From: Pseudomonadota bacterium
GTDB lineage: Bacteria; Pseudomonadota; Alphaproteobacteria; Acetobacterales; Acetobacteraceae
Direction of reading: 5' to 3'
Length of the DNA stretch: 64,000 nucleotides
Assembly (NCBI GenBank): GCA_021780035.1
Contig: JAJXZO010000075.1
Span: forward strand, 11,483-75,482
Shown: one piece after another, positions 40,033 through 57,187 of the stretch
Numbering within the stretch: position 1 is the first letter of the stretch
Layout: the number at the start of each line of letters is the position of its first letter
Position numbers and translations under genes: made by a program
The notes under the pieces: model-generated
What the model was told of the DNA's origin: nothing
The model's input: the letters and a program-made list of their open reading frames with translations, nothing else
Database searches by the model: none

Positions 40033-41727
40033 ATGACACAGGACCCCGGCTTGACCGAGACAGTGAGCCTGCGCGAGAGCCGCCCGCCGCCCGAATGGCT
40101 GGCGGGGCGGAGCATCGTGCTGGTCGGACTGATGGGTGCCGGCAAGACCTCGATCGGCCGGCGGCTCGCTGCCCATCTCAGCCTGCCGTTCCGCGACGCC
40201 GACGTCGAGATCGAGCTGGCCGCCGGCTGCACCATCAGCGAGCTGTTCCAGCGCTACGGCGAGCGCGAGTTCCGCGAGGGCGAACGGCGGGTGATCCGCC
40301 GCCTGCTGTCCGCCGACCCGATAGTGCTGGCCTTCGGCGGCGGCGCCTTTATGGACGCCGATACCCGCGCTACCGTGCGGCGCGAGGCGGTGAGCATCTG
40401 GCTGCGCTGCGGCCTGCCGGTGCTGCTGCGCCGGGTCGCCGGGCGCATGCACCGGCCGCTGCTCGCCAACCAGAACCACCAGGAGGTGCTGCAGCGGCTG
40501 ATGGCGGCCCGCCATCCGGTGTACGCCGAGGCCGACATCGTGGTGGACGTCACCGACGACACCCAGGAAGTCACCACCGGGCACGTTCTCGATGCACTCT
40601 ATGCCTTCCGCCCGCCCAGGCGCTTGTCGCTCGCCCTCACCAGTTCCGGCTACGAGGTGGTGGCGGGGGAGAACCTGCTCGCCTCCGCCGGCGCCCTGCT
40701 CGCCCCGGTGCTGGCGCAAAAGCGCGCCGTGGTGATCACCGATACCACCGTCGCCGCCCTGCACCTACCCACTCTGCTGCGCGGCCTGGAAGCCACCGCC
40801 GTCGAAACCCGCTGCATCACCGTTCCCGCCGGCGAGGCGGCGAAAACTCTCGCCTGCTACGGCGAGGTGGTGGAACAGCTGCTCGACAGCGGCGTGGAGC
40901 GGCGTACCACGGTAATCGCCCTCGGCGGCAGCGCGGTGGGCGATCTCGCGGGCTTCGTCGCCGCTACCACGCTGCGCGGCCTGCCCTTCGTGCAGGTGCC
41001 CACCACCCTGTTGTCGCAGGTCGATTCCTCGATCGGCGGCAAGGTCGGCATCGACACGCGGCACGGCAAGAACCTGCTCGGCGCCTTCCACCAGCCGCGC
41101 ATGGTGCTGGCCGATACCGCGACCCTCGCCACCCTGCCGCGCCGCCAGCTTGCCGCCGGCTATGTGGAACTGGTGAAGGCGGCGCTGATCGGCGATGCGG
41201 TGTTCTTCGAATGGTGCGAGGCGAACGGCGCCGCCGTGCTCGCCGGTAACCACGCGACGCAGGCGGAGGGCATCCTGCGCGCCTCGGCCTTCAAGGCGCA
41301 GGCGGTAACCGGCGACGAGCGCGAGGAAAAGACGGAGAACGGCCGCGCGCTGCTCAACCTCGGCCACACTTTCGGCTACGCGCTAGAGACGGAACTCGGC
41401 AACAACACCATCCTGCACGGCGAGGCGGTGGGACTCGGCATCGGCCTTGCCTTCCGCCTCTCGGCGCGGCTCGGCCTCTGTGCCGAGGCCGACGGCGAGC
41501 GGGTGATCGGACACCTCGCTTCACTCGGCGTGCCGATGGAGCTTGCGGCGTTCGGCCGTCCCCTCTCGGCGGCGCGGCTGCTCGAACACATGCACCACGA
41601 CAAGAAGATCCGCGACCGCAGGCTCACCTTCGTGCTGCTGCGGGGAATCGGCAACGCGTTCACGCACGGCGAGGTACCGGAAGAGGCCGTCGCCGCCGTG
41701 CTGCGGGAAGCCGGCTGCGAGCCGTAG
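40033..41727 (+). CDS. aroKB: Fused shikimate kinase / 3-dehydroquinate synthase (AroB half has atypical active-site residues)
   Basis: AroK: GLMGAGKT, DAD, FR, GGGA. AroB: PTTLLSQVDSSIGGK, GKNLLGAF, NLGHTFGY, LHGEAV. Confidence 0.92.
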   Translation: MTQDPGLTETVSLRESRPPPEWLAGRSIVLVGLMGAGKTSIGRRLAAHLSLPFRDADVEIELAAGCTISELFQRYGEREFREGERRVIRRLLSADPIVLAFGGGAFMDADTRATVRREAVSIWLRCGLPVLLRRVAGRMHRPLLANQNHQEVLQRLMAARHPVYAEADIVVDVTDDTQEVTTGHVLDALYAFRPPRRLSLALTSSGYEVVAGENLLASAGALLAPVLAQKRAVVITDTTVAALHLPTLLRGLEATAVETRCITVPAGEAAKTLACYGEVVEQLLDSGVERRTTVIALGGSAVGDLAGFVAATTLRGLPFVQVPTTLLSQVDSSIGGKVGIDTRHGKNLLGAFHQPRMVLADTATLATLPRRQLAAGYVELVKAALIGDAVFFEWCEANGAAVLAGNHATQAEGILRASAFKAQAVTGDEREEKTENGRALLNLGHTFGYALETELGNNTILHGEAVGLGIGLAFRLSARLGLCAEADGERVIGHLASLGVPMELAAFGRPLSAARLLEHMHHDKKIRDRRLTFVLLRGIGNAFTHGEVPEEAVAAVLREAGCEP

Positions 41728-41740: not shown

Positions 41741-43606
41741 TCAGAGCAGTTCGGTCAGATCGACGCTGCGCGACTGCGCGGTGAGGCGGACATGCGTGTT
41801 GGCGGCGCCGTAGCCCGCGTAGCCGTCGCGCTGCACGATCTCGAAGAAGAACCGCTTGTCGAAGGCGGCTGTGTACATCTGCAGGAACACGTTGCCGTCC
41901 ACGTCCTCGTCGTAGAGGATGTCGCGCGCCGCGAGCCGCTCCACCAGCGCGGCGTCGAGGCCGAAGCGGGCGGCGATGTCGTCGTAGTAGTTGCGTGGGA
42001 TCTGCAGGATTTCCGCCCCGGCCGCCGCCAGCGAGTCGGCGATGGCGAAAATGTCGTCGGTGGCGAGCGCCAGGTGCTGGATGCCGCCGCCGAGCGCGTT
42101 CTCCAGGAAATGCGCCGCCTGCGTGCGGCTGGCGTCGGTGCCGTTCAGGGTCATGCGGAAGGCGCCGTCGGGGCTTTCCACCACCTGGCTCTGCACCACG
42201 CCGGAAGGATCGAAGATGTCCTGGCGCGCGGTCTTCGTCAGGCCGAACAGCGTCGTCCAGTAGAGAAGCCAGGACTGAAACTCCTCGTGGGCGATGGTGG
42301 CGGCGAGATGGTCGAAGCGACGCAGCCCGAAACCTTCGGTCGCCCCGCCCATGCGCTCGAACTCGTGGTCCCAGAGCGCCTCCACCTCGTTCTTGGCGAT
42401 CAGATAGACAAGGCTGCCGCCGACGCCGCGCACCGCCGGCAGCCGCAGGTTGCCGGGACCGGCCTCCTCCTCGAAGTCGTCGATGCCGAGCGCCCGCGCC
42501 CGCGCCCGCGCCCGGCCGACGTTGTCGACCAGAAGGCCTATGGCGCAGACCGAGGCGCCGTAGTTCAGGTAGTAGCTCTGCGCAAAGCTGTTCGGCTGGC
42601 TGTTGACGACGATGTTGATGTCGCCCTGCCGCCAGCGGTTCACCGCCTTGTTGCGGTGCCTGCCGGCAAGCTGGAAGCCGAGGCTGCCCAGCATCGATTC
42701 GATCTGCGCCGCCTCCTCGGGTGAGGCGGCGATCTCGACGAACTCCACCCCGTGCGCGGCGGCGAACGACGGCAGCCGCGGCTGGCGGCCGAGCGCGCGC
42801 TCCGCCGCATCGCAGGTGGCGCTGAGCGCCCGCACGCCGTCCCTGGCGACGATGCCCGCCGATCCGGCGCGAAAGCGGTCGTTGAAGATCTCAAGCGACA
42901 GGGGCCCCTGGTAGCCGATGCGCATCAGCGCCGCCACGTAGTCGGTGACGGGCAGGTCCCCCTGCCCCGGCATGTTGCTGTAGTGGCGGCTCCACTGCCT
43001 GAGGTTCATCTCGAGCATCGGTGCGTCGGCAAGCTGCACCAGGAAGATGCGCGCCGGGTCGATGGTGAGGATGCTGTCGGTCGGCACGCTCCGGGCGATG
43101 GAGTGAAAACTGTTGAGCGCGAGCCCCACCGCGGGATGCCCGGCGGCAGTGACGATCGCCCAGGCGTCGCGGTGGTCGCTGACGTGCGCGCCCCAGGACA
43201 GCGCCTGGTAGGCGATGCGAAGCCCCCGCGCCGCCGCGCGCTCGCCGAGTTCGCGCAAGTCGTCTGCGATGCGGGCGTGATCGCCGTTCGCCTCGGCGAC
43301 GGAGCTGGATGAGACGAGCAGCAGATCGGTGCCGAGCCGCGCCATCAGGTCGAACTTGCGGAGCGCGCGGTCGAAGGCGCGCTGGCGCCGCGCTCCGGCC
43401 AGCCCCTCGAAATCGGCAAACGGCTGATAGGCGATGCAGCGAAGGTTGAGATCGGCAAGCATCCCCCGCGCGTCTTCCGGGGAGCCGTCAAAGGCGACGA
43501 GATCGCTCTCGCAGATCTCCACGCCGTCGAAGCCGGCCTTGGCGACGACCGGCAGCTTGTCGCCGAGCGCGCCGCTGATCGATACGGTAGCGATAGAAGT
43601 GAGCAT
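41741..43606 (-). CDS. QuiC1-like fusion (xylose-isomerase-like TIM barrel + HPPD-like domain); dehydratase site appears degenerate
   Basis: SIATVS, GFDGVEI, VQLADAP, SLEIFND; C-terminal FDHL, IQHLAL, FFFEIVQR. Q134 and N165 sit at the recalled E134/D165 metal-ligand positions. Confidence 0.88.
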   Translation of the reverse strand: MLTSIATVSISGALGDKLPVVAKAGFDGVEICESDLVAFDGSPEDARGMLADLNLRCIAYQPFADFEGLAGARRQRAFDRALRKFDLMARLGTDLLLVSSSSVAEANGDHARIADDLRELGERAAARGLRIAYQALSWGAHVSDHRDAWAIVTAAGHPAVGLALNSFHSIARSVPTDSILTIDPARIFLVQLADAPMLEMNLRQWSRHYSNMPGQGDLPVTDYVAALMRIGYQGPLSLEIFNDRFRAGSAGIVARDGVRALSATCDAAERALGRQPRLPSFAAAHGVEFVEIAASPEEAAQIESMLGSLGFQLAGRHRNKAVNRWRQGDINIVVNSQPNSFAQSYYLNYGASVCAIGLLVDNVGRARARARALGIDDFEEEAGPGNLRLPAVRGVGGSLVYLIAKNEVEALWDHEFERMGGATEGFGLRRFDHLAATIAHEEFQSWLLYWTTLFGLTKTARQDIFDPSGVVQSQVVESPDGAFRMTLNGTDASRTQAAHFLENALGGGIQHLALATDDIFAIADSLAAAGAEILQIPRNYYDDIAARFGLDAALVERLAARDILYDEDVDGNVFLQMYTAAFDKRFFFEIVQRDGYAGYGAANTHVRLTAQSRSVDLTELL

Positions 43607-43723
43607 CGGCCTGCCGTCCTCGCCTCTGGCTGCGCGCCGCCGCGAAACCGCGCCTTCCCGCGCAGCCAACGCAGTCTAGGCGCCCGCCACCGCCGTCGCA
43701 ACCGGCAGGGCCACAGGCGCCGC

Positions 43724-44428
43724 CTACTCGGAGAGGGTCTTGTCCTGGACCGTGCGGGCCACGCACTCGGAGACGTGCTGCGTGAGAATGGCCTTCGCCG
43801 CCGGGGCGTCGTGGCGGAGCGCGCAGTCGAACAGCATGCGGTGCTCCCCGGCGGTGATCTCACCGCGGAAGGACACCGCGATCATCAGGTAGCGCAGGTA
43901 GCGGTCGTAGACCGAGGCGCAGGTTTCCAGCAGCGCCCGCGACCCGCAGGCGGAGATGAGGGCCTTGTGGAACTCCCAGTCGTATTTCTTCCAATCCTCG
44001 ACGCTGGCCTTGTCTCCGCCCAGCATCATCCCCTCGACCAGGGCGAGCTTGTGATGGGCGGCGGCGACGCGGCCCTCCCAGTCGATGTCGCCGGCGGCGA
44101 AGGATTCCTCCATCGCCGGGCACTCAACCAGAAGCCGCAGCGCGGCGAGTTCCTTGAGGTCGGCCACCGAGACCGGCGCCACCCGGAACCCCCGCTGCTC
44201 CTCGGCGATGACGAGTCCCTCGGACGACAGCCGGCTCAGGATCTCGCGCAAGGTGCTGACCGACGGACCGTAGGCCGTGCGCAGACGATCGAGGCGCAAC
44301 CTCTCTCCCGGTACGAAACGCCCGAAGATGATATCGGAGCGGATCTGCCGATAGACGCTTTCTCCGACCGTAGTTGGCTCAGCTAGACTGGTGGACAAAG
44401 TCCGTCTCCGTTCCTTGGCGTTCGCCAT
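43724..44428 (-). CDS. GntR/FCD-family transcriptional regulator
   Basis: VYRQIRSDII, PGERL, STLREILSRL, GFRVAPVS, FHKALISACGS. Start uncertain. Confidence 0.9.
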   Translation of the reverse strand: MANAKERRRTLSTSLAEPTTVGESVYRQIRSDIIFGRFVPGERLRLDRLRTAYGPSVSTLREILSRLSSEGLVIAEEQRGFRVAPVSVADLKELAALRLLVECPAMEESFAAGDIDWEGRVAAAHHKLALVEGMMLGGDKASVEDWKKYDWEFHKALISACGSRALLETCASVYDRYLRYLMIAVSFRGEITAGEHRMLFDCALRHDAPAAKAILTQHVSECVARTVQDKTLSE

Positions 44429-44557
44429 CCGGCGGAACGTTTCGTGCACCCGCCCGATGGATTTGTCCACCATCCCGGGCGGCGGCACCTGGTGCTCGCT
44501 GCCCGCCGCATGCGCGGGAACCATCTCGTCGTCGCTCCGGAGAATATCCGAGCACAA

Positions 44558-44761: not shown

Positions 44762-45643
44762 ATGTCCCAAGAGATTCCGCAGATCGTCACCGGGCACACC
44801 GAGCTTCTGGGGCTGATCGCCTATCCGATCCGCCACTCGAGCTCGCCCAGGATGCACAACCTCGCCCTCGCGAGGCTCGGCCTCGACTACGTCTACCTCG
44901 CCTTCGAGGTCGATGACCGGGAGCTGAAGGGCGCCATCGACGGCATGAAGGCGCTGAAGGCGCTGGGATGGAACGTCTCCATGCCGAACAAGGTGGAAGT
45001 GGTGAAGCATCTCGACAAAATCTCCCCCGCCGTCGAGCTCTGCGGCGCCTGCAACACCGTGGTCAATGACGCCGGCGTGCTCACCGGGCACAACACCGAT
45101 GGCCTCGGCTACATCCTGGCGCTGCGCCAGGTGGGCATGGATATAGCGGGCCGGCGGCTCGTACTGATCGGCGCCGGCGGCGCCGCCGTCGCCATCACCA
45201 CGCAAGCGGCGCTCGACGGGGCGGCGGCGATCGACATCTTCAACCAGCGCGACGCGTTCTTTCCGCAGGCCGAGGCCCTCGCCGGCCGCATCTCCGCCCG
45301 TACCGGCTGCCCGATCGCCGTGCACGACCTTGCCGATACGGGGAACTTCCGCGCCGTCGTCGCCCGCGCCGATATCCTCGGCAACGCATCGAAGATCGGC
45401 TTCAAAGGGGAACTCGAGAGCCTTTCGCCGCTGCCCGATTCCTCGGTGCTGCGGGCGGACCTGTTCGTCAGCGACGTGGTGTACGCGCCGCTGAAAACCA
45501 GGCTGCTCCGCGAGGCCGAGGCAGCCGGCTGCCGCACCATGGGCGGCATCCCGATGATGTTGCACCAAGGGGCGGCGGCGTTCAAAATGTGGACCGGCAA
45601 GGACATGCCGCTCGACTACGTCGAAGAGCACCTGTTTTCGTAG
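44762..45643 (+). CDS. ydiB: Quinate/shikimate dehydrogenase (YdiB type)
   Basis: GLIAYPIRHSSSP, NVSMPNK, NTV, NTDG, GAGGAA, IFNQRDAFF, WTGKDMPLDYV closely track recalled E. coli YdiB. Confidence 0.88.
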   Translation: MSQEIPQIVTGHTELLGLIAYPIRHSSSPRMHNLALARLGLDYVYLAFEVDDRELKGAIDGMKALKALGWNVSMPNKVEVVKHLDKISPAVELCGACNTVVNDAGVLTGHNTDGLGYILALRQVGMDIAGRRLVLIGAGGAAVAITTQAALDGAAAIDIFNQRDAFFPQAEALAGRISARTGCPIAVHDLADTGNFRAVVARADILGNASKIGFKGELESLSPLPDSSVLRADLFVSDVVYAPLKTRLLREAEAAGCRTMGGIPMMLHQGAAAFKMWTGKDMPLDYVEEHLFS

Positions 45644-45690
45644 GGGCCCCGCCGCGGGAGCGCGGCCGGGCATTGGCAAGGGGTCGCGCG

Positions 45691-46458
45691 ATGCGAACGG
45701 TTGGCGTGAAGAACGTCGTTCTCGGTGAGGGCAGGCCGAAGATCCTGGTGCCCATCGCCGCCACCACCTCGGCCGACGCCATCGCCGCGGCAGCTCGGCT
45801 CGGCGCCGAGGCCGGCCTCGACATCATCGAGTTCCGCGTCGACTACCTCGACATCGCCTTCGATACGCCGCGCCTGGCCCGCCTCACCCGCACGGTGGCC
45901 GAGGTCGCTCCCGGCAAGCCGCTCCTTGTCACCTTCCGCACCAAGGCGGAAGGCGGGGCGGCGGCGCTCTCCGATGCCGCCTATGCCGAGTTCTATGGCG
46001 CCGTGCTGCGCGAGCGCTCCGCCGACCTCATTGACGTCGAACTGATGCGCGACGAGCGGGTGGTGCGCGGTCTCGTCGCCGCGGCGCATACGGCGGGAGT
46101 GCCAGTGGTGATGTCGAACCACGACTTCGCCGGCACCGCGCCGACGGAAGAACTGGTGGGACGGCTGCGGCGGATGCAGGAACTGGACGCCGACGTCCTC
46201 AAGATTGCCACCATGCCGCAGGACGCGGGCGACGTGCTGAAGCTGCTCTCCGCCACCTGGATCATGCACAGCCAGTACGCCGAGCGGCCGCTGATCACCA
46301 TGGCGATGGCGGGCAAGGGCGTGCTCTCCCGCCTCGCCGGAGAGCTAGTCGGTTCCGCAGCCACCTTCGGCATGGTGGGAACGCCCTCCGCGCCCGGGCA
46401 GATGGCGCTGCCCGATCTGAAGGCGACGCTGGAACTGATCAGCCGTTCGATGAAGTAG
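45691..46458 (+). CDS. aroD: Type I 3-dehydroquinate dehydratase
   Basis: GEGRPKILVP, EFRVD, TFRTKAEGG, SNHDF, KIATMP (Schiff-base Lys), MAGKGVLSRLAGE, SAPGQ. Confidence 0.94.
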   Translation: MRTVGVKNVVLGEGRPKILVPIAATTSADAIAAAARLGAEAGLDIIEFRVDYLDIAFDTPRLARLTRTVAEVAPGKPLLVTFRTKAEGGAAALSDAAYAEFYGAVLRERSADLIDVELMRDERVVRGLVAAAHTAGVPVVMSNHDFAGTAPTEELVGRLRRMQELDADVLKIATMPQDAGDVLKLLSATWIMHSQYAERPLITMAMAGKGVLSRLAGELVGSAATFGMVGTPSAPGQMALPDLKATLELISRSMK

Positions 46459-47374
46459 TGACGCAGGCGTTCGCGCCAGCACCCAGATGCGCGAGCCGGC
46501 CGGGCAGGCGGCGCCCGATCCGCTTTTCCAGCACGAGCGCGAGGTCGGCGAGCTTCCGCCAATCGATGCCGGTGGCCACGCCCATTTCCTCCAGCGCATA
46601 GGCCGCGTCCTCGGCCGCGACGTTGCCTGCTGCCCCCGGGATGAACGGGCAGCCGCCCAGGCCGCCGAGCGCCACATCGAAGATGGTGATGCCCGCTTGC
46701 AGCCCGGCCACCATATTGGCAACGCCCAGCCCCCGCGTGTCGTGCAAATGCAGCGACAGCTTCACCCGCTCCGACACCTCCGCGCGCACGCGGCGGGCGA
46801 GCGCGTCGATCGACTTCGGGTTGCCGAGCCCGGCCGAATCCGCGAGATTGATCTCGTGCGCGCCGAGACGGTCATAGAGCCGGGCGATATCGCACACCAC
46901 GTCGGGGGAGATCGCGCCCTCGTAGGCGCAGCCGAATGCCGACTGGATGCCGCCGCGGGTGACGATGCCCGCGTTCACCGAACCCGAAATCATGTCGCGG
47001 ATCTGCACCATGCTTTCCGCGAGCGTCCGGTTGGTGTTCTTCCGGCTGTGCATCTCGCTCGCCGAGATCGACACGCTGAGGTGCGGAACCTTGCAGGCGA
47101 TGGCGCGCTGGAGCCCCTTCTCGTTCAGCACCAGCGCCGTGTAGGTCACATCGGACCGGCGCTCGAGGCGGCGGAACACCTCGTCGGTATTCGCCATCTG
47201 CGGCACCCACTTCGGATGCACGAACGAACCCACCTGGATGCGGCGCACGCCAGCCGCTTCCATGCCCTTGATGAAACCGATGATCTCCTCGACCGAAAGC
47301 TGCGTCTTTTCGCTTTGCAGCCCGTCGCGCAGGCATTCGTCCTCGATCACGACATTCGGCGGCAACTCGTACAT
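46439..47374 (-). CDS. HMG-CoA lyase family (DRE-TIM metallolyase)
   Basis: LRDGLQSE, SFVHPKWVPQMA, HLHDTRG, GGLGGCPF, GNVAAED. Confidence 0.9.
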   Translation of the reverse strand: MYELPPNVVIEDECLRDGLQSEKTQLSVEEIIGFIKGMEAAGVRRIQVGSFVHPKWVPQMANTDEVFRRLERRSDVTYTALVLNEKGLQRAIACKVPHLSVSISASEMHSRKNTNRTLAESMVQIRDMISGSVNAGIVTRGGIQSAFGCAYEGAISPDVVCDIARLYDRLGAHEINLADSAGLGNPKSIDALARRVRAEVSERVKLSLHLHDTRGLGVANMVAGLQAGITIFDVALGGLGGCPFIPGAAGNVAAEDAAYALEEMGVATGIDWRKLADLALVLEKRIGRRLPGRLAHLGAGANACVTTSSNG

Positions 47375-47414
47375 CGCTGTTCTTCCCATTCTCTCGAAAC
47401 TTCGGCGCACTTCC

Positions 47415-48491
47415 TCAGGAAAGCGAGACGACGCGCCCCGTGGTCGCGGCTTCCCTCACCGCGAGCGTCACCGCCAGCGTCCGGGTGCCATCGCGCGCGT
47501 CGATCAGCGGCTTCGCCTCGCCGCGGACCACGTCGCAGAAGTGGTGCATCTCGTTGGTGAGCGGATCGCTGTTGATTCGAAGCGTCCAGGCGTCCTGCTC
47601 CGCCACGACGGCGCGCTCGGCGTGCAGCGGCGCCCACCATGCCTCCGCCCCACCGTGGCGCCAGAATTCGCCCCGCGGAACGGAAAGCGCTCCTTCCATC
47701 CCGGTAACGAAATAGCAGCTTTCGCCGCTTTTCGGATAGGCCCGATTCTCACCCGAGGTCAGCTCCCAGCTCCAGGGACCGGCCGTCGCGTCCGATAGCG
47801 CGATCGTGCCGACCGCGCCGTTCGCGAAGCGGAGCACGATGCCCACCGTGTCTTCCACCGGGAAGCCGCGCGCGGCCGAAGAGGCCATCGCCTGCACGCT
47901 CTCGATCTCACCGCAGAGGTTGCGCAGGTCGTCGATAACGTGGATCAGGTTGATCAGCACTGGGCCGCCACCCGGCTTGCGCCGCCATTCCCCGACGCCT
48001 TCGAAATAGTCCTGCGGCTTCAGAAACCAGGAGAATGCGTGGACGGCGGTGATCCTGCCGAGACGGCCCGCCTCAATAACAGCTTTCGCCTGTCGCATCA
48101 CCGTACCATGGCGATGGTGGTGCCCGACCAGCACCGCAACGCCCGCCTTCTCCGCAGCGTCGGCGAAGGCACACCCTTCCTCGACCGTGTCGCAGACCGG
48201 CTTTTCCATCAGCATCGGCAGCCCACGTCTCAACAGTTCCATTCCCGACTGGAAATGGAATTGGTTGGGAAGCGCCACGACCACACCGTCCGCCGCAACG
48301 CGGTCTAGCATCGCCGACAGGTCGGGCGCCCACGCGACACCGAGAATGTCCGCCTGTTCCCGTATCTTCGGCACCGGATCGACGATGCCGACCAGATCGG
48401 CGCCGGGCTCGTCGAGAACGCGCCTGATGTGCGCCTGTCCGATCAGTCCGGCCCCGGCGACGACCAGACGCGTCTTTCCCTTGTCGCTCAT
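47415..48491 (-). CDS. Gfo/Idh/MocA oxidoreductase
   Basis: VAGAGLIG, MEKP, VGHHHRH, GGGPVLINLIHVIDD. Confidence 0.9.
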   Translation of the reverse strand: MSDKGKTRLVVAGAGLIGQAHIRRVLDEPGADLVGIVDPVPKIREQADILGVAWAPDLSAMLDRVAADGVVVALPNQFHFQSGMELLRRGLPMLMEKPVCDTVEEGCAFADAAEKAGVAVLVGHHHRHGTVMRQAKAVIEAGRLGRITAVHAFSWFLKPQDYFEGVGEWRRKPGGGPVLINLIHVIDDLRNLCGEIESVQAMASSAARGFPVEDTVGIVLRFANGAVGTIALSDATAGPWSWELTSGENRAYPKSGESCYFVTGMEGALSVPRGEFWRHGGAEAWWAPLHAERAVVAEQDAWTLRINSDPLTNEMHHFCDVVRGEAKPLIDARDGTRTLAVTLAVREAATTGRVVSLS

Positions 48492-48520
48492 TGCCCACTC
48501 CCGTTTCCCGCCCGCGCGCC

Positions 48521-50410
48521 CTAGAGCATGATGGTGGAAATCACCGGGAACGCGGCGATGATCGCCAGTGCGATCACCAGCATGGCGAGAAGCGGCCAGA
48601 TATTGCGCATCGTCTGCTCGGGCGACACTCGGCCGATGGCGCAGGCGCCATAGAAGCCGAGCCCGAACGGTGGCGCGAACAGGCCGATGCCCATCGCCAG
48701 GATGTCCACGATGGCGTAGTGCACGTCGTTGATATGCAGGGCGCGGGCCACCGGGAAAAGCAGCGGCGCCAGCAGCACGATCACGGGCATGCCTTCGAGC
48801 ACGCTCCCCAGAACCACGAACACGACGATCGACAGCGCCATGAAGGGCAGGACACCGCCGGCGTGCGTTATCATCTCGGTCAGCGCGTGCGAGAAACCGG
48901 ACTGGGTCAACGCCCAGGCCATCGCCGTGGCGCAACCGACGATGAGCAGGACCACCCCCGAAAGCGAGGCGGTATCGGCGAGAATCGGGTACATCCGGTC
49001 CCACTGCACCTGCTTCCAGGTGATTAAGCCGATGAGCAGGGCGTAGATGATGCCGATGGTGGACACTTCCGTTGCTGTGGTGATGCCGCCCAGCACGAAC
49101 GTGCGGATGAGGAACGGCAGCGCCAGGCCCGGGAGGGCAAGGATGAACGTGTATCCGATTGTCCGCCATGAGGCGCGGGGGGTGACCGTTCCGCTTCTGC
49201 GCGCCTTCCAGCCGACGTAGATTACCAGCGACAGCGCCGCCACCAGCGCCGGCAGGATGCCGCCGGCAAACAACCCGGCGATGGACACGCCGGCCACCGC
49301 GCCGATGGCGATGAGCACGATGCTCGGCGGAATGGTCTCCGACATGGCGCAGGCGGCCGCCAGAAGCGCCACCATCTTTCCGGGGTCGTTGCCGCGCTTC
49401 CTCATCTCGGGCACCAGAATTGGCGCGACGGCCGCCATATCGGCGATCTTCGAGCCCGAAATGCCGGAGATCAGGAAGATCGCGCCCAGCAACACGTATT
49501 CCAGGCCGCCGCGGACGTGGCCCAGCAGCGCGACGAGGAAGTTGACCATGTTGCGGGCCATTCCCGTCACCTCGATCAGCACGCCGAGGTAGATGAACAG
49601 CGGCACCGCCAGCAGCAGCATGTTGGAAACACCGATGTCGATGCGGTTGAGCATGATCGACAGCGGCGCATGTGTGGAAAAACTGAGGTAGGCCATCGTC
49701 GCGATGCCGAAGGAAAAGGCGATCGGCGTTCCGGAGAAAATGGCGACGAAGACGACCGGCCCGAAGAAGATGGCGAGGCTCGCCGGACCCATGCTCGCCC
49801 ACGTGCTTTGGAACATCCACAGCGGCGCGGCGATAGCGGCGACGGCAATGATCGCGCCGATCAGGTGGGCCGGACGAACCAGCCGCAGCCGGACGACAGC
49901 CATCACCAGCATCAGCCCGAACGAGATCGGCAGCGCGCTCGACCGCCACGAGTCCGGAATCTCGAACTGCGGGGTGAGCATGATGTACTGCTGAATCGTG
50001 TAAATTACGGATTGGTAGGCTATCCCCGCGAGGAATACCACGGAGACCACCTGCGCAAACGCGTTGACCCAGGGCTTCCAGGCTTCCGGCAGCATCTGCA
50101 GCGCAGTCGTCATCCGCATGTGCTCGCTGCGCTGGTAGCCCAGCACGGCGCCGAGCATCGTCAGCCAGATGAACAGGATGATCGCTGTCTCGTCGGTCCA
50201 GAGCGATGGCGAATCGAGCACGTAACGGGTCGTGACACCCCAGAACAGGATGATCACCTCGGCCACCACCAGTATCGCGCCAAGCGCCTCCATCGTCACG
50301 CCGATGTAACGCTCGATTGCGGTCTGGCGCTGGATCTGATGCGCCACCCCGGCGACAGCTTCCGGGGGAATTTCCCCCGGAAGCACGACATCATTGGACT
50401 CGGCAGTCAT
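48521..50410 (-). CDS. TRAP transporter fused DctQ-DctM membrane subunit
   Basis: DETAIILFIWLTMLG...EHMR (DctQ) followed by GISGSKIAD, TIPPSI, TATEVS, PPFGLG (DctM); TGATG overlap with dctP. Confidence 0.9.
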   Translation of the reverse strand: MTAESNDVVLPGEIPPEAVAGVAHQIQRQTAIERYIGVTMEALGAILVVAEVIILFWGVTTRYVLDSPSLWTDETAIILFIWLTMLGAVLGYQRSEHMRMTTALQMLPEAWKPWVNAFAQVVSVVFLAGIAYQSVIYTIQQYIMLTPQFEIPDSWRSSALPISFGLMLVMAVVRLRLVRPAHLIGAIIAVAAIAAPLWMFQSTWASMGPASLAIFFGPVVFVAIFSGTPIAFSFGIATMAYLSFSTHAPLSIMLNRIDIGVSNMLLLAVPLFIYLGVLIEVTGMARNMVNFLVALLGHVRGGLEYVLLGAIFLISGISGSKIADMAAVAPILVPEMRKRGNDPGKMVALLAAACAMSETIPPSIVLIAIGAVAGVSIAGLFAGGILPALVAALSLVIYVGWKARRSGTVTPRASWRTIGYTFILALPGLALPFLIRTFVLGGITTATEVSTIGIIYALLIGLITWKQVQWDRMYPILADTASLSGVVLLIVGCATAMAWALTQSGFSHALTEMITHAGGVLPFMALSIVVFVVLGSVLEGMPVIVLLAPLLFPVARALHINDVHYAIVDILAMGIGLFAPPFGLGFYGACAIGRVSPEQTMRNIWPLLAMLVIALAIIAAFPVISTIML

Positions 50411-51426
50411 CAAGAAAGGGTTCCTACGACCTGCTCGAGCGCACTCCACACCTTATCGCCATACTTCTTGTGCCAATCCTTATAATAAGTCGTGGTTTTC
50501 AGTTTGTCGCGGAAGGACGCCAAGTCCGGCACCGTCACCGCCATTCCCTGGGACTTGAGAAGGTCGGTCGTGTGCTGGTTATCTGCGAGAATGGCGGCCC
50601 GCTCTTCCTTCGCCGCCGCCTCGAAGTTGCGCGCCATGATTTCCTTAATGTCATTCGGCAACTTGGTCCACAACGCCTTATTGGCGATGATCCACCAGTT
50701 GTCCCACATGTGGTTGGTGAGAGCGAGATGCTTCTGCACCTCGTACAGCTTGAAGGTCTCGATCTGCTGCACTGGCCCCTCGGAGCCTTCGGCAACCCCG
50801 GTTTGCAGCGACGTGTAGAGCTCGCTGATATCGACGCTCATCGGCGCCGCTCCCAGGTTCGCCCACAGCGAAGTCCACACCTGCCCGATCGGCAGCCGGA
50901 GCTTCAGATTCTTCACGTCCTTCACGTCCTTCACGACGCGGCGCGTAGTCGTGAGCTGCCTGAAGCCCTGCTCGAAACAAATCGGCTGACAGTAGAAACC
51001 ACCCTTGTCCAGGGCGTCGCGGACGATCGCGCCGAGCGCGCCGTCCATTGCCTTCCACGCCTGCTGGGGATCCTTGAACGCGAAGCCGACCGCGTTGATG
51101 CCGGCCACCGGAACCACATTGGAAAGCGAGCTGCCGCTTTCCATCTGGAAGTCCAGCGCCCCGCTATGAACCTGCATGATCATGTCGAGGTCGCCGCCCA
51201 ATTGCCCCGACGGGTAGGTCTGCAGGTGGATGCGCCCCTTCGATTCCTTGGCCATATTGGCTGCCGTCTTGTCGAGCACCTGAACGGCGATATGGTCCTT
51301 CGGCTGCACCATGCCGATCTTGAAGTTGTACTGGGCGGCCTGCGCCGAGCGACCCGGAATGATAAGTGCCGGCGTCGCCAATGCGGCGACAGTCCCGACT
51401 GTAAACCTACGACGTGTAACGTGCAT
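50410..51426 (-). CDS. TRAP solute-binding protein DctP family, Tat-type signal
   Basis: YPSGQLGGD, GFRQLT, LKLRLP, ELYTSLQTGV, EVQKHLALTNH; N-terminus VTRRRF. Confidence 0.9.
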   Translation of the reverse strand: MHVTRRRFTVGTVAALATPALIIPGRSAQAAQYNFKIGMVQPKDHIAVQVLDKTAANMAKESKGRIHLQTYPSGQLGGDLDMIMQVHSGALDFQMESGSSLSNVVPVAGINAVGFAFKDPQQAWKAMDGALGAIVRDALDKGGFYCQPICFEQGFRQLTTTRRVVKDVKDVKNLKLRLPIGQVWTSLWANLGAAPMSVDISELYTSLQTGVAEGSEGPVQQIETFKLYEVQKHLALTNHMWDNWWIIANKALWTKLPNDIKEIMARNFEAAAKEERAAILADNQHTTDLLKSQGMAVTVPDLASFRDKLKTTTYYKDWHKKYGDKVWSALEQVVGTLS

Positions 51427-51674
51427 GACGTTCTCCCCTGAGTTGGCGATCATTCTCCCTCCCTCATCTCCGGGAGGGCGCTTCCAGCAAAACCGATCTA
51501 TCTCCGCCCAATGCGGATATCTCTGCCTCCATACCGCCACGACCGCATGGCTAGCAGCATAGCTGACAACTGAAAAATACCTTTCCTAATGCTTCCAGTC
51601 AACGGCCGCGGCAGCAAATGATAGCGTTATGACGCGCTTTCGCGCCACCATTGCCGCCCTTCCAATGCGGTTGA

Positions 51675-52418
51675 TCATACGAAAATCCCCCCGTTTACAT
51701 CGAGAACTTCGCCGGTGACCCATCCTGACTCGTCGCTGGCGAGGAACACGGCGGCGTAGGCGATGTCGTCCATCGTCCCCAGGCGGGGTACGCAGGCGTT
51801 GCTCAACAAAACCTTCAGTTTCTCCGGCTCGAGCTGGCTGGTCATCTGTCCGCGCAAAGGACCGGGCGCGATGCTGTTGACCGTAATATTGAAGGTGCCG
51901 AGTTCACGAGCCAGGGTCTGCGTGAGTCCGATCACGCCGGCCTTGGAGGCAGCGTAATCCACTCCGACACCTGGCCGCCCGGTGCGTCCGCCGAGTGACG
52001 AAATATTGATGATATGCCCGGCGCTCCGCGCCTTCATGCCGGGAACGACGGCTTTGCACGCGACGAACGTGCCGGTCAGGTTGATGCCGATCACCTTCTC
52101 CCAGGCGGCGACCGGCAGCTGGTCAATCGGCATGTGGTCGAGGACGCCGGCGCAATTCACAAGGACATCAATGCCGCCGAACAGCTTTTCGGTTTCCGCA
52201 ACAGCCCGTTCCACCGCTTCGAGGTCGCGTACGTCGCCGGTCAGCGCCGTCAGACGCCGCCGCTCGCCGCCCAGGACGTTGGAGACTTTTTGCAGCAGAG
52301 CGGAGTTGACGTCGAAGAGGGCAACCGCCGCACCGTGTTCCAGGAAGCGCCCGGCGATCGCGGCGGCGATCTCGCCGCCGCCGCCGGTCACGAATGCGAC
52401 TTTCCGCTCCAGCCTCAT
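51675..52418 (-). CDS. Short-chain dehydrogenase/reductase
   Basis: VTGGGGEIA, LVNCAG, NISS, YAASK, VNSIAPG, VTGEVLDVNGG. Confidence 0.9.
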   Translation of the reverse strand: MRLERKVAFVTGGGGEIAAAIAGRFLEHGAAVALFDVNSALLQKVSNVLGGERRRLTALTGDVRDLEAVERAVAETEKLFGGIDVLVNCAGVLDHMPIDQLPVAAWEKVIGINLTGTFVACKAVVPGMKARSAGHIINISSLGGRTGRPGVGVDYAASKAGVIGLTQTLARELGTFNITVNSIAPGPLRGQMTSQLEPEKLKVLLSNACVPRLGTMDDIAYAAVFLASDESGWVTGEVLDVNGGIFV

Positions 52419-52521
52419 GGCCTTTACCTCCGTGCAAGATTCGACGATCAGATCGTCCGGAATCTCTCACCCGTCACGCCCGGCGGTGCAAGACCCCGCC
52501 CTGCGTATCGCTCCCTCACGT

Positions 52522-53838
52522 CTATTCGCGGCGCATCTTGATCGCGGCAGCCACTACCACCGACAGCAGTCCGCCGAGCGCCATGAACGCCGCCACCGGC
52601 TGCCACGTGTGGTTCATGTCGAACAGCAGCGTGCCGATGAAGGGCGTGAATCCGCCGAAGATCACGCTCGCCACCTGATAGCCGATGTTGGCACCGCTGT
52701 AGCGGTATTCGGTGCCGAAGAAACCGGTGAACAGCGGCTGCTGCACCGAGTTCACCATATCGTGCGCGATGTTCGCGAGCAGCACCGAGAGGATGACGAT
52801 CCACACCACCGAGCGCGCTTCCATTGCCATGAAGAACGGCCACGTCGCCAGCACGCCGATGATGGCGCCAGTCAGGTACACCCGCTTGTAGCCCACCCTG
52901 TCGGCGAGCCACGCGAAGAACGGCAGTGTGACGCAGCTCACCGCGCCGACCACGAAGCCGACGTTGAGGAACAGCGAGCGCGACATGTGCAGCACGGACA
53001 CCGAATAGTAGAGAGAGAAGGTGGTGACCATGTACATCGCCAGCAGCTCGATGGCGCGCATGGAGATGATGATGAAGAACGCGCCGGGGTGCCGCGTGAG
53101 CGCGACGATGACCGGCGCCTTGATGTGCCGCTCGCCGTGCGCACCCACCTTGGCCACGAACTCTGGCGTCTCTTCCAGGCCGAGCCGGATCCAGAGCGCG
53201 ATGCCGACGAGAACGATGCTGAACAGGAACGGCACGCGCCAGCCCCACGACAGGAAGGCGGCGTTGCTCATCGTCGCGCTCAGCGTCGACATGATGCCGG
53301 TGACGATAATCAGCGCCACGCCGTAGCCCACCTGCACGCCGCTGCTGAAAAAGGCCTTCTTGCCGGAAGGCGCGCTTTCCACGGCCATCAGAGCGGCGCC
53401 GCCCCATTCGCCGCCAACCGCGACCCCCTGCAGGATGCGCAGGAGAACCAGCAGCAGCGGCGCATACCAGCCGATGGATGCGTAGGTCGGCAACAGGCCG
53501 ATGCAGGCCGATGAAACGCCCATCAGGCCGACGGTGATGACCAGCATGGCGCGGCGGCCAACGATATCACCATAGTGGCCGAAGATGATCCCGCCCAGAG
53601 GCCGGAACAGGAAGCCCACGCCGAGAGTGGCGAATGCCGCCAGCGTCCCCAGCGTGGGGTCGTGGCTCGGAAAGAACAGGCCGTTGAACACGACGGCCGC
53701 CATGAAGCCGTAGAGAAGGAAATCGTACCAGTCGACAATGGCACCGACGAAGCTGCCGAGCGCCGCCTTGCGCGAGCGTGCCGAGGCGATTTCCGTCGCA
53801 CCTACCGCTCCCTTCACGATCGCCGCCGTCTCGGACAT
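52522..53838 (-). CDS. shiA: Shikimate transporter ShiA (MFS, MHS family)
   Basis: DWYDFLLYG, FRPLGG, VGGEWGGAAL, KKAFFSSGVQVGYG, EYRYSGA match recalled E. coli ShiA. Confidence 0.85.
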   Translation of the reverse strand: MSETAAIVKGAVGATEIASARSRKAALGSFVGAIVDWYDFLLYGFMAAVVFNGLFFPSHDPTLGTLAAFATLGVGFLFRPLGGIIFGHYGDIVGRRAMLVITVGLMGVSSACIGLLPTYASIGWYAPLLLVLLRILQGVAVGGEWGGAALMAVESAPSGKKAFFSSGVQVGYGVALIIVTGIMSTLSATMSNAAFLSWGWRVPFLFSIVLVGIALWIRLGLEETPEFVAKVGAHGERHIKAPVIVALTRHPGAFFIIISMRAIELLAMYMVTTFSLYYSVSVLHMSRSLFLNVGFVVGAVSCVTLPFFAWLADRVGYKRVYLTGAIIGVLATWPFFMAMEARSVVWIVILSVLLANIAHDMVNSVQQPLFTGFFGTEYRYSGANIGYQVASVIFGGFTPFIGTLLFDMNHTWQPVAAFMALGGLLSVVVAAAIKMRRE

Positions 53839-53914
53839 TTCTTTCTCCCCGTCACTTTGTTCGTTCGTCTCGTCGTGTGGGCCGGCCGATTGCCGGCCGG
53901 CCCGTCCGTCCCTC

Positions 53915-55678: not shown

Positions 55679-55707
55679 GGTTGCTTTCCTGTTTTCCGTT
55701 TCCTCGC

Positions 55708-57117: not shown

Positions 57118-57187
57118 AGGAACCGCCTCGTTTCGTTGACTGTCTACAGGTTACGGAGCGCGGACAGCCGGGCCCCGCCGCCGCGGG

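What the first reader, a model, noticed from the sequence alone, without database searches (positions are those of the whole stretch)
41741..43606. QuiC1 homolog is a probable natural pseudo-dehydratase (E134Q, D165N, R210S, R64A) with an intact HPPD-type metal triad
Seen: counting from ATG 43606, residue 134 is Q (CAG 43207-43205), 165 is N (AAC 43114-43112), 191 is Q and 239 is E. YQPFADF, HYSNMPGQG and LLVSSSS replace the usual FQPFRDF, HFRCFPGQG and LVCSN. Known (from memory): P. putida QuiC1 binds its catalytic metal via E134/D165/Q191/E239, the same numbering. The C-terminal His/His/Glu motifs (FDHL, IQHL, FEIV) are retained. Inference: it cannot make protocatechuate, yet the 621-aa frame is intact. 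It may act through the C-terminal Fe(II) domain, or as a ligand sensor with the co-transcribed GntR.
Basis: partly seen in the sequence, partly recalled or inferred. Interest (0 to 1): 0.78.

Follow-up and report, generated by a model that had tools for sequence, protein, structure and literature searches.

The report
QuiC1 homolog with a dismantled dehydratase site
An intact, selectively maintained copy of the two-domain enzyme that normally turns 3-dehydroshikimate into protocatechuate has lost most of that enzyme's metal- and substrate-binding residues. It belongs to a small bacterial clade whose quinate/shikimate genes sit beside what looks like a non-aromatic breakdown route rather than protocatechuate genes.

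Summary
The 621-aa ORF (43606..41741, minus strand) aligns without gaps to P. putida QuiC1 (5HMQ) across the dehydratase domain. It carries A64, Q134, N165 and S210 where 111-112 of 112 canonical homologs have R, E, D and R. Three independent metagenome runs reproduce the sequence.

It is not a decaying gene:
- All ten clade members are exactly 621 aa with no indels.
- dN/dS is 0.11-0.24 in both domains, the same as the neighbouring genes.
- A promoter-like element upstream is conserved.

New findings:
- D165N and R210S define a monophyletic clade from Acetobacteraceae metagenome-assembled genomes (200/200 bootstraps). E134Q, R64A and C99S occur only in the window lineage.
- Sites that are invariant in canonical dehydratases have become variable in the N-domain only (28/111 vs 6/82 in the C-domain, p=0.001).
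- A canonical homolog in the same family sits inside a pcaHG/pcaIJF cluster. This clade instead sits beside a module of TIM barrel, ThDP enzyme, acylating aldehyde dehydrogenase and HMG-CoA-lyase-like protein. Strict anaerobes carry the same module with no QuiC1 at all.

Best reading: the canonical dehydratase function is lost or crippled, and the protein is kept for another role. The C-terminal His/His/Glu site is intact, but that is true of the whole family. No activity has been measured.

The parts
41741..43606 (-). QuiC1-family two-domain gene, 621 codons plus stop; ATG at 43606
   Evidence: AF2 model pLDDT 88.9; Foldseek TM 0.91-0.93 to 5HMQ
42782..43606 (-). N-terminal xylose-isomerase-like TIM barrel (residues 1-275), the former DSD domain. 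Carries A64, S99, Q134, N165 and S210; keeps L136, H168, Q191, S206 and E239
43205..43207 (-). Codon 134, CAG (Q) instead of GAG/GAA (E). Metal ligand; private to this lineage
43112..43114 (-). Codon 165, AAC (N) instead of D. Metal ligand; N in all 10 clade members (AAC or AAT)
43415..43417 (-). Codon 64, GCC (A) instead of R. Active-site Arg; private to this lineage (H in two sisters)
42977..42979 (-). Codon 210, AGC (S) instead of R. Active-site Arg; S or G in all clade members
41744..42754 (-). C-terminal HPPD-like VOC domain (residues 285-621) with H433 (42310-42308), H511 (42076-42074) and E589 (41842-41840)
43673..43701 (-). Promoter-like TTGCGA-N17-TAGACT about 67 nt upstream of the ATG, alignable in all eight clade loci; AGGA ribosome-binding site at 43620-43617
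   Evidence: 8 of 12 consensus matches, below the scan tool's threshold
43724..44524 (-). GntR/FCD regulator directly upstream on the same strand; promoter-like site at 44569-44541
44762..45643 (+). Quinate/shikimate dehydrogenase (YdiB/AroE-like), divergent from GntR
45691..46458 (+). Type I 3-dehydroquinate dehydratase
46439..47374 (-). HMG-CoA-lyase-like protein, last gene of the 58027..46439 minus-strand operon
47415..53838 (-). Gfo/Idh/MocA oxidoreductase (47415-48491), TRAP DctQM (48521-50410), DctP (50410-51453), SDR (51675-52418), ShiA shikimate transporter (52522-53838)
53915..55678 (-). Acetolactate-synthase-like ThDP enzyme (587 aa)
55708..57117 (-). CoA-acylating aldehyde dehydrogenase (SauS/EutE-like)
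57188..58027 (-). Second xylose-isomerase-like TIM barrel ('TIM2', 279 aa) with a full E-D-H-E metal tetrad by alignment to IolI and Lmo2234
40033..41727 (+). AroK-AroB fusion (shikimate kinase + 3-dehydroquinate synthase), convergent; syntenic in all clade loci

Best explanation
The gene encodes a full-length, folded QuiC1-type protein (TIM barrel plus HPPD-like domain) that is kept by purifying selection. Its N-terminal domain no longer has the canonical divalent-metal 3-dehydroshikimate dehydratase site: two of the three acidic metal ligands (E134Q, D165N) and both active-site arginines (R64A, R210S) are gone.

It is the most degenerate member of a monophyletic clade of sequences from Acetobacteraceae metagenome-assembled genomes (peat and mine drainage) that began with D165N + R210S. 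In that clade the quinate/shikimate genes (transporter, quinate/shikimate dehydrogenase, type I dehydroquinase, GntR regulator) are linked to a module of TIM2, ThDP enzyme, acylating aldehyde dehydrogenase and HMG-CoA-lyase-like protein, not to protocatechuate genes. That module can in principle take 3-dehydroquinate to acetyl-CoA plus 2-oxoglutarate without an aromatic intermediate.

In such a cell an active dehydratase would irreversibly drain dehydroshikimate to protocatechuate. Loss of that chemistry would therefore be tolerated or favoured, and the protein persists for a role that does not need it. The most likely such role is whatever the family-wide conserved C-terminal 2-His-1-Glu domain does, possibly together with binding of a hydroaromatic ligand in the now uncharged N-terminal pocket.

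Shown: the substitutions, clade structure, selection, shift in constraint, and the contrast in gene context. Inferred: loss of activity, the pathway chemistry, and the present role.
For: - Residues and their published roles.
- Sequence reproduced in three independent runs.
- Clade monophyly 200/200 bootstraps, window lineage sister to the rest.
- All members are 621 aa with no indels.
- NG86 omega is 0.11-0.24 (N-domain) and 0.12-0.23 (C-domain), against 0.07-0.28 for eight neighbouring genes.
- N165, E239, Q191, H511 and E589 are kept across synonymous codon changes.
- Sites at least 95% conserved in 112 canonical homologs are polymorphic within the clade at 28/111 N-domain vs 6/82 C-domain positions (p=0.0011; sisters only p=0.0003). 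Overall polymorphism is equal (42% vs 43%).
- Within the clade other active-site residues also vary (S206 to C/N/Y, H168Y, R64H, E30G).
- Charges are lost in pairs (D165N with R210S in the clade; E134Q with R64A in the window).
- A canonical homolog in another Acetobacteraceae metagenome-assembled genome lies between pcaHG-pcaCD and pcaF-pcaIJ-pcaR. No pca or lig gene lies near any clade member or in the 64-kb window.
- The TIM2/ThDP/aldehyde-DH/HMGL/dehydroquinase/shikimate-DH module occurs without QuiC1 in Ca. Formimonas warabiya and Lucifera butyrica and in many metagenome loci.
- The C-terminal triad is kept in other QuiC1-family lineages with degenerate N-sites (P0237, P0268).
- Confident QuiC1-like fold.
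- Conserved upstream promoter-like element.
Against: - No activity, metal-binding or expression data exist. Metatranscriptomes of the same study hold nothing from this gene.
- Asn and Gln can coordinate Mg/Mn/Co through their carbonyl oxygens. Q191 is already a neutral ligand in QuiC1, so residual or altered catalysis is possible, especially in the sisters, which keep E134, Q191, E239, H168 and mostly R64.
- The window N-domain is not significantly accelerated relative to its sisters (14-22 vs 9-14 unique changes, not significant).
- Enrichment of changes at the active site over other conserved sites is modest (p=0.045).
- No function is known for the C-terminal domain in any family member (PMC7442255).
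- Only 64 kb of this genome was seen, so pca genes or a second dehydratase may lie elsewhere.
- Window-versus-sister dS is about 1, near saturation, so those omega values are rough.
Confidence: 0.5

Rival explanations
1. Neofunctionalised enzyme. The N-terminal barrel still catalyses a reaction on a different hydroaromatic substrate. One candidate is the same enolisation and beta-elimination applied to 3-dehydroquinate instead of 3-dehydroshikimate, giving a 3,4-dione for ThDP-dependent ring opening; another is an isomerisation. D165N/R210S (and here E134Q/R64A) would retune the pocket rather than kill it.
For: - N165 and S210 are fixed across the clade with synonymous variation, and G132A is also fixed.
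- Q191, D194, H208, E239, W138 and H141 are all retained.
- N-domain omega is as low as C-domain omega.
- Paired charge losses look compensated rather than random.
- QuiC1-like and TIM2-like domains are fused in one 898-aa Actinoplanes ORF. A QuiC1-like gene with H168N lies next to TIM2 in L069. Both suggest consecutive steps in one pathway.
Against: - The module works without any QuiC1-like gene in strict anaerobes and in most of 35 loci (QuiC1-like present in 1-2).
- Several pocket residues are variable inside the clade (S206, H168, R64, E30), which is unexpected for a newly optimised site.
- With only E239 left as an acidic ligand, metal-assisted enolisation is hard to picture in the window protein.
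Confidence: 0.22
2. Still a weak 3-dehydroshikimate dehydratase. It makes small amounts of protocatechuate as an inducer, iron-chelating compound or exported metabolite rather than as a catabolic flux, as proposed for Listeria QuiC2.
For: - It sits in a quinate/shikimate cluster that supplies dehydroshikimate.
- Neutral Asn and Gln can still ligate metals.
- Listeria makes protocatechuate without being able to degrade it (bioRxiv 10.1101/2025.04.08.647683).
Against: - E134, D165 and E239 equivalents are conserved in all three structurally different DSD types (PMC9324987) and in 142 of 150 family representatives.
- Both active-site arginines are missing here.
Confidence: 0.13
3. Ligand sensor or regulatory partner. 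The uncharged pocket binds a hydroaromatic without turnover and modulates the adjacent GntR/FCD regulator or another enzyme.
For: - GntR followed by this gene is conserved in every clade locus.
- Isosteric E-to-Q and D-to-N changes preserve pocket shape.
Against: - The gene has its own conserved promoter-like element.
- FCD-type GntR regulators bind effectors themselves.
- A GntR/FCD gene accompanies the module in Lucifera without any QuiC1.
- No precedent was found in the literature searched.
Confidence: 0.1
4. Gene on its way to becoming a pseudogene. Function was lost recently and the frame is intact only by chance.
For: - The window lineage has the most deviations at canonical-conserved sites (17/111 N-domain, 9/82 C-domain).
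- No close relative exists with which to test recent selection.
Against: - Its branch is long (0.16 substitutions per site; dS about 1 to the sisters), yet there is no indel, no stop codon, and omega is about 0.16.
- The C-domain is not accelerated.
- The promoter-like element and ribosome-binding site are conserved.
- The identical sequence appears in several samples.
Confidence: 0.05

Closest known systems
Pseudomonas putida QuiC1 (PDB 5HMQ), two-domain 3-dehydroshikimate dehydratase
   Same: Same two-domain architecture and length. 44% identity, TM 0.91-0.93. No gaps in the N-domain alignment. L97, L136, H168, Q191, S206 and E239 and the C-terminal H/H/E triad are retained.
   Different: R64A, E134Q, D165N and R210S at published active-site positions, plus C99S. 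It is not linked to protocatechuate genes.
Corynebacterium glutamicum QsuB (qsuABCD quinate/shikimate operon)
   Same: A two-domain DSD homolog embedded with a transporter, a dehydroquinase and a quinate/shikimate dehydrogenase. The C-terminal domain has no known catalytic role (PMC7442255).
   Different: QsuB keeps all ten active-site residues and is an active Co2+/Mg2+ enzyme. The window protein keeps six.
Canonical alphaproteobacterial QuiC1 homologs (e.g. L021 from an Acetobacteraceae metagenome-assembled genome; Sphingomonas)
   Same: 50-58% identity and the same length class. NCBIfam QuiC scores are equally sub-threshold (582-696 bits vs 595-608 for the clade).
   Different: The canonical ones have E134/D165/R64/R210, and L021 lies inside a pcaHG-pcaCD-pcaF-pcaIJ-pcaR cluster.
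Pseudoenzymes (catalytically dead paralogs kept by selection)
   Same: Catalytic residues are lost while the fold, the length and purifying selection are retained.
   Different: Loss of activity has not been measured. A fused second domain with an intact metal site may carry the selected function.
myo-Inositol pathway IolG/IolE/IolD and cyclohexane-1,2-dione hydrolase (an analogy for the neighbouring module, not for the gene itself)
   Same: The same logic: cyclitol dehydrogenase, then a TIM-barrel dehydratase giving a 1,2-dione, then ThDP-dependent ring opening, then an aldehyde dehydrogenase (gene content; the comparison is from established knowledge of the iol pathway).
   Different: TIM2 and the ThDP enzyme are not IolE or IolD orthologs. 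No NCBIfam IolE hit was found. The best PDB matches of the ThDP enzyme are BbmA and acetolactate synthases, with CDH further down.
Listeria Lmo2234 (PDB 2G0W), from the qui2 locus that also encodes the QuiC2 dehydratase
   Same: Best PDB sequence match of TIM2, the second TIM barrel in the cluster. Lmo2233 is the LysR-type regulator upstream of the qui2 operon.
   Different: The match is only 31 bits over about 150 residues. That Lmo2234 is QuiC2 itself is my inference and was not verified.

Membership tests
QuiC1/QsuB-type two-domain 3-dehydroshikimate dehydratase (EC 4.2.1.118) | N-terminal xylose-isomerase-like TIM barrel fused to a C-terminal HPPD-like domain, about 620-640 aa | tested here: met
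   Pfam PF01261 + PF14696/PF00903; 5HMQ E=3e-159; Foldseek TM 0.91-0.93
QuiC1/QsuB-type two-domain 3-dehydroshikimate dehydratase (EC 4.2.1.118) | Acidic metal ligands E134, D165 and E239 (plus Q191) | tested here: not met
   Q134, N165, Q191, E239. E134 and D165 are 112/112 in canonical homologs and 142/150 in family representatives. Their ligand role is stated in PMC9324987.
QuiC1/QsuB-type two-domain 3-dehydroshikimate dehydratase (EC 4.2.1.118) | Remaining published active-site residues R64, L97, L136, H168, S206 and R210 | tested here: not met
   A64 and S210; L97, L136, H168 and S206 are kept
QuiC1/QsuB-type two-domain 3-dehydroshikimate dehydratase (EC 4.2.1.118) | NCBIfam equivalog NF042435 score at or above the 1200-bit cut-off | tested here: inconclusive
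   595 bits. However, canonical alphaproteobacterial homologs, including the pca-embedded one, also score only 582-783 bits, so the cut-off does not discriminate here.
QuiC1/QsuB-type two-domain 3-dehydroshikimate dehydratase (EC 4.2.1.118) | Genomic link to protocatechuate catabolism or use | tested here: not met
   No pca or lig genes in the 64-kb window or in any clade locus. The canonical L021 lies inside a pca cluster. The rest of the genome was not seen.
QuiC1/QsuB-type two-domain 3-dehydroshikimate dehydratase (EC 4.2.1.118) | Conversion of 3-dehydroshikimate to protocatechuate | not testable with these tools
   Needs an enzyme assay
4-hydroxyphenylpyruvate dioxygenase (HPPD) | 2-His-1-Glu Fe(II) triad and the GIQH / FFExxQR motifs | tested here: met
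   H433, H511 and E589 align to the 1CJX ligands
4-hydroxyphenylpyruvate dioxygenase (HPPD) | TIGR01263 equivalog score at or above 277 bits; HPPD activity | tested here: not met
   198.7 bits. Activity is not testable here. No C-terminal-domain activity was found for QsuB (PMC7442255).
Pseudoenzyme (dead-enzyme homolog under selection) | Loss of residues essential for the ancestral catalysis | tested here: met
   4 of 10 active-site residues are replaced, including 2 of 3 acidic metal ligands
Pseudoenzyme (dead-enzyme homolog under selection) | Maintained by purifying selection | tested here: met
   Omega 0.11-0.24, no indels in 10 sequences, similar to the neighbouring genes. This was measured for the clade; there is no close relative for the window branch alone.
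Pseudoenzyme (dead-enzyme homolog under selection) | Demonstrated absence of the ancestral activity | not testable with these tools
   Needs an assay of the wild type and of the Q134E/N165D/A64R/S210R revertants

The most novel reading that the evidence does not exclude
The D165N/R210S clade marks a metabolic rewiring. In these acidophilic and peat-dwelling Acetobacteraceae, quinate and shikimate are not aromatised to protocatechuate. They are degraded by an oxygen-independent route that I could not find described.

Proposed route:
1. Quinate is oxidised to 3-dehydroquinate (quinate/shikimate dehydrogenase).
2. Shikimate enters through dehydroshikimate and the reverse reaction of type I dehydroquinase.
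3. TIM2 dehydrates 3-dehydroquinate to 1-hydroxy-3,4-dioxocyclohexane-1-carboxylate.
4. The ThDP enzyme opens the ring to 'homocitrate semialdehyde'.
5. The acylating aldehyde dehydrogenase gives 3-carboxy-3-hydroxyadipyl-CoA.
6. The HMG-CoA-lyase-like enzyme splits it into acetyl-CoA plus 2-oxoglutarate.

The route balances in carbon and redox, and the six genes are shared with strict anaerobes. On this reading the former dehydratase was disarmed by selection because it would short-circuit the route, and it was repurposed through its C-terminal metal domain or as a dehydroquinate-directed enzyme or ligand binder.
Probability: 0.3. Interest if true: 0.85.

Novelty: new variant of a known kind. 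Interest (0 to 1): 0.6.

Why it matters
QuiC1/QsuB-type proteins are annotated, and used in metabolic engineering, as protocatechuate-forming dehydratases. This clade shows that the architecture can persist under selection after the dehydratase site is dismantled, so automatic annotation of 'quinate to protocatechuate' capacity in peat and mine-drainage Acetobacteraceae would be wrong.

It also provides a natural experiment on the unexplained C-terminal HPPD-like domain. That domain keeps its ancestral constraint pattern and metal triad here and in other lineages with degenerate N-sites, which argues that it has a function of its own.

Finally, the contrast in gene context (pca genes versus the ThDP / aldehyde-DH / HMG-CoA-lyase-like module) points to a possible non-aromatic, oxygen-independent route for two of the most abundant plant hydroaromatics. 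That would matter for carbon turnover in anoxic peat.

Tried and rejected
- **Primary paper not available.** Peek et al. 2017 (QuiC1 structure) is not held. Residue roles were taken from PMC7442255 and PMC9324987 instead.
- **Expression.** RNA runs of the same study hold no words of the gene, and nothing could be laid on it. That leaves no evidence either way on expression.
- **Relative-rate test, window versus sisters.** The N-domain shows an excess of changes, but it is not significant. I therefore dropped the idea that the window N-domain evolves neutrally.
- **NCBIfam QuiC cut-off.** Rejected as a membership criterion because canonical homologs fail it too.
- **Literature.** Searches for a non-aromatic or ThDP-dependent quinate/shikimate pathway, for 'homocitryl-CoA', for IolD/IolE with quinate, and for any newer report on the function of the C-terminal domain found nothing relevant. 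The 'BbmA' search returned only unrelated 'bbmap' matches.
- **ThDP enzyme.** Sequence alone does not place it with cyclohexane-1,2-dione hydrolase. CDH scores 176 bits against 293 for BbmA and acetolactate synthases.
- **Bootstrap.** The Biopython version timed out and was replaced by a numpy neighbour-joining run.
- **Not possible with the capped scans.** I could not search the rest of the source genome for pcaHG/ligAB or a second dehydratase.
- **Not possible with the tools.** Model coordinates are not exposed, so I could not measure the D165-R210 and E134-R64 distances.
- **Sequencing or assembly error.** Rejected.
- **The longer TTG start at 43669.** Rejected because all homologs begin at MxTSIATVS.
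Full report

The minus-strand ORF from ATG 43606 to the stop at 41741 translates to 621 residues without interruption. Its best solved relative is P. putida QuiC1 (5HMQ, E=3e-159). Pfam finds the xylose-isomerase-like TIM barrel (residues 20-255) followed by the HPPD N-terminal and VOC domains.

At the ten positions that PMC7442255 lists as the QuiC1 active site (R64, L97, E134, L136, D165, H168, Q191, S206, R210, E239), the window protein has A, L, Q, L, N, H, Q, S, S, E. PMC9324987 states that the E/D/E equivalents (AsbF E142/D172/E253) are the metal ligands and are conserved in all three structurally distinct dehydratase types.

Among 112 canonical homologs, each of the ten positions is 98-100% conserved. 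Among 150 representatives of 50%-identity clusters, E134 and D165 are each present in 142. Four changes in ten has probability 2.6e-6 at the canonical deviation rate. Even against this protein's own other conserved N-domain positions the active site is hit more often (4/10 vs 13/101, p=0.045).

The exact protein is encoded on contigs from several assemblies. Logan contigs of three mine-drainage DNA runs cover codons 64, 134, 165 and 210 with no differences.

**2. It belongs to a clade, and the four changes have two different ages.**

A protein search returns seven relatives at 73-76% identity, then a drop to 58% or less. Two more relatives come from Acetobacteraceae metagenome-assembled genomes in GTDB. 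All ten have N165 and S210 (G in one). Only the window protein has Q134, A64 and S99; two sisters have H64.

The clade is monophyletic in 200/200 neighbour-joining bootstraps, with the window lineage sister to the rest. So D165N and R210S are ancestral to the clade, and E134Q, R64A and C99S are private to this branch. Each step removes one negative and one positive charge from the pocket.

Other lineages of the wider family have independently degenerated at the same positions. P0268, for example, has Q134/N165/Y168/Q210/A239 and a shikimate dehydrogenase gene next door.

**3. It is not decaying.**

- All ten clade members are exactly 621 residues and align without a single gap.
- Nei-Gojobori omega is 0.11-0.24 for the N-domain and 0.12-0.23 for the C-domain.
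- The neighbouring genes give similar values: shikimate dehydrogenase 0.14-0.17, dehydroquinase 0.13-0.17, GntR 0.11-0.14, AroK-AroB 0.26-0.28, ThDP enzyme 0.08-0.09, aldehyde dehydrogenase 0.07-0.08.
- Window-versus-sister dS is about 1, so those ratios are rough. Sister-versus-sister pairs (dS 0.3-0.7) are more reliable.
- N165, Q191, E239, H511 and E589 persist through synonymous codon changes.
- The AlphaFold model is confident (pLDDT 88.9, pTM 0.87) and superposes on 5HMQ at TM 0.91-0.93.
- A relative-rate test shows no significant acceleration of the window N-domain.
- The 120 nt upstream of the ATG align across all eight loci at 77% column identity. They keep a TTGC(A/G)-N17-CTA(A/G)(A/G)CT promoter-like pair and a ribosome-binding site, in a region where adjacent synonymous sites have diverged by 0.3 to 1.

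**4. The ancestral constraint on the dehydratase domain has nevertheless been released.**

I took the positions that are at least 95% conserved in the 112 canonical homologs and asked how many are polymorphic within the ten-member clade. The answer is 28 of 111 in the N-domain against 6 of 82 in the C-domain (Fisher p=0.0011). Without the window protein it is 24/111 vs 3/82 (p=0.0003). Overall polymorphism is identical in the two domains (42% vs 43%).

The released positions include further active-site or near-invariant residues:
- S206 becomes C, N or Y.
- H168 becomes Y in one sequence.
- R64 becomes H or A.
- E30 becomes G in most sisters.
- F32C and R244W also occur.

This is the signature of a domain that must still fold but no longer performs its ancestral chemistry, beside a C-terminal domain that continues as before. 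One caveat: the sisters keep E134, Q191, E239, H168 (8 of 9) and R64 (7 of 9), some with synonymous variation. A remodelled but working metal site in the sisters cannot be excluded. The window protein is the extreme case.

**5. Gene context explains why.**

Around the gene lie:
- a GntR/FCD regulator (43724-44524, minus strand);
- a divergent quinate/shikimate dehydrogenase and a type I dehydroquinase (44762-46458, plus strand);
- a nine-gene minus-strand operon (58027-46439) encoding a second TIM-barrel protein (TIM2), a CoA-acylating aldehyde dehydrogenase, an acetolactate-synthase-like ThDP enzyme, a ShiA shikimate transporter (above the NCBIfam cut-off), an SDR, a TRAP transporter, a Gfo/Idh/MocA oxidoreductase and an HMG-CoA-lyase-like protein.

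The same neighbours flank every clade member whose contig is long enough. No pca or lig gene occurs there or anywhere in the 64-kb window. By contrast, a canonical homolog (E134/D165/R64/R210) from another Acetobacteraceae metagenome-assembled genome lies between pcaHG-pcaCD and pcaF-pcaIJ-pcaR.

TIM2 has homologs of about 60% identity in strict anaerobes. In Ca. Formimonas warabiya and Lucifera butyrica it forms a compact module with shikimate dehydrogenase (or a Zn-ADH), type I dehydroquinase, the ThDP enzyme (71-74% identical to the window's), the aldehyde dehydrogenase (65-67%) and the HMGL-like protein, with no QuiC1-like gene. In 35 loci of at least 10 kb recovered through TIM2, the ThDP enzyme and the aldehyde dehydrogenase co-occur in 24 each. 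A QuiC1-like gene occurs in one or two, and those carry H168N or E134K.

**6. Proposed mechanism (inference).**

The six shared enzymes can carry out a balanced, oxygen-free route:
1. Quinate to 3-dehydroquinate. Shikimate enters through dehydroshikimate and the reversible dehydroquinase.
2. IolE-type dehydration by TIM2, which has the full E-D-H-E metal tetrad, to a 3,4-dione.
3. IolD/CDH-type ThDP-dependent ring opening.
4. CoA-acylating oxidation of the resulting aldehyde to 3-carboxy-3-hydroxyadipyl-CoA.
5. Retro-Claisen cleavage by the HMG-CoA-lyase-like enzyme to acetyl-CoA plus 2-oxoglutarate (seven carbons in, two plus five out).

I found no description of such a route in the held literature.

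In a cell using this route, an active dehydroshikimate dehydratase would irreversibly divert the shared intermediate to protocatechuate. That makes loss of the activity tolerable or even advantageous.

The whole protein, including the C-terminal domain with its unchanged constraint pattern and H433/H511/E589 triad, stays under selection here. The C-terminal triad (H433/H511/E589) is likewise kept in other lineages with degenerate N-sites. Together these argue for a role independent of canonical dehydratase catalysis. I commit to that reading at about 0.5: a DSD-dead or severely crippled protein retained for a C-terminal-domain or ligand-binding role.

The rivals are a retuned enzyme acting on another hydroaromatic (0.22), residual protocatechuate formation as a signal (0.13), a sensor partner of GntR (0.1) and recent pseudogenisation (0.05).

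**7. Comparison with what is known, and verdict.**

By architecture and descent the protein is a member of the QuiC1/QsuB family. Two defining catalytic features were tested and are not met: the acidic metal ligands and the active-site arginines. It should therefore not be filed as a 3-dehydroshikimate dehydratase. The NCBIfam equivalog cut-off is not informative, because pca-linked canonical homologs fail it too.

The substitutions, their meaning and the 'not decay' prediction hold. However:
- The clade-level signal belongs to D165N/R210S only.
- The intact C-terminal triad is family-wide.
- Co-transcription with GntR is doubtful.
- Loss of activity remains unmeasured.

I rate it a new variant of a known kind, of moderate to good interest. 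The neighbouring pathway is the more novel lead.

Noticed in passing
window 46439-58027 (-) plus 44762-46458 (+); also L030, L031, L034, L041, L075, L112: A conserved module: TIM-barrel protein (TIM2), ALS-like ThDP enzyme, CoA-acylating aldehyde dehydrogenase, HMG-CoA-lyase-like protein, type I dehydroquinase and shikimate dehydrogenase. It is shared between Acetobacteraceae and strictly anaerobic Firmicutes, with the ThDP enzyme 70-74% and the aldehyde DH 65-68% identical. It fits a balanced, O2-independent route from quinate/shikimate to acetyl-CoA plus 2-oxoglutarate, which I could not find described.
   Followed up: partly
L027 9929-12625 (also L028, L029; Actinoplanes chromosomes): A QuiC1-like protein (35% identity; A64, S99, E134, D165, R210; C-terminal triad H/H/A) and a TIM2-like barrel (45% identity) are fused in one 898-aa ORF. 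This Rosetta-stone link suggests the two act together. R64A + C99S is the same pair of changes as in the window lineage.
   Followed up: partly
P0268 (L032 594-2486), P0237, P0157, P0227, P0261, P0269: Other QuiC1-family lineages have independently lost dehydratase-site residues (for example P0268: D64, Q134, N165, Y168, Q210, A239). The full-length ones keep the C-terminal triad in full (P0237, P0268) or in part (P0269: H/Q/E). P0268 is directly followed by a shikimate dehydrogenase gene.
   Followed up: partly
window 43673-43701 (-): A promoter-like TTGCGA-N17-TAGACT between the GntR stop and the QuiC1-like ATG, conserved in position and sequence in all eight clade loci. It suggests the gene has its own promoter rather than simply being read through from GntR.
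   Followed up: partly
window 55708-57117 (-): The acylating aldehyde dehydrogenase is far more conserved than its neighbours (91-93% amino-acid identity to clade orthologs vs 71-85% for the other cluster genes; omega about 0.07-0.08).
   Followed up: no
window 40033-41727 (+): An AroK-AroB fusion (shikimate kinase + dehydroquinate synthase, 564 aa) lies convergent to the QuiC1-like gene and is syntenic in every clade locus. Its omega (0.26-0.28) is the highest in the neighbourhood.
   Followed up: no
window 43427-43595: In run X1 a second, lower-depth contig (8.3 vs 23.5) differs at 7 positions within codons 4-60 of the gene. This indicates a co-occurring strain variant. None of the key codons is affected.
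   Followed up: no
L069 5-1468 and 3222-4037: A metagenome contig carries a QuiC1-like gene (53% identity; E134/D165/R210 kept but H168N) about 1.7 kb from a TIM2 homolog. This is another case of a QuiC1-like protein with an altered site next to the module.
   Followed up: no
window 35775-37466 (+) and 33910-35726 (+): A methyltransferase-glycosyltransferase fusion (563 aa) lies next to flagellar export genes (FliI ATPase, FliJ). It is unrelated to the finding.
   Followed up: no
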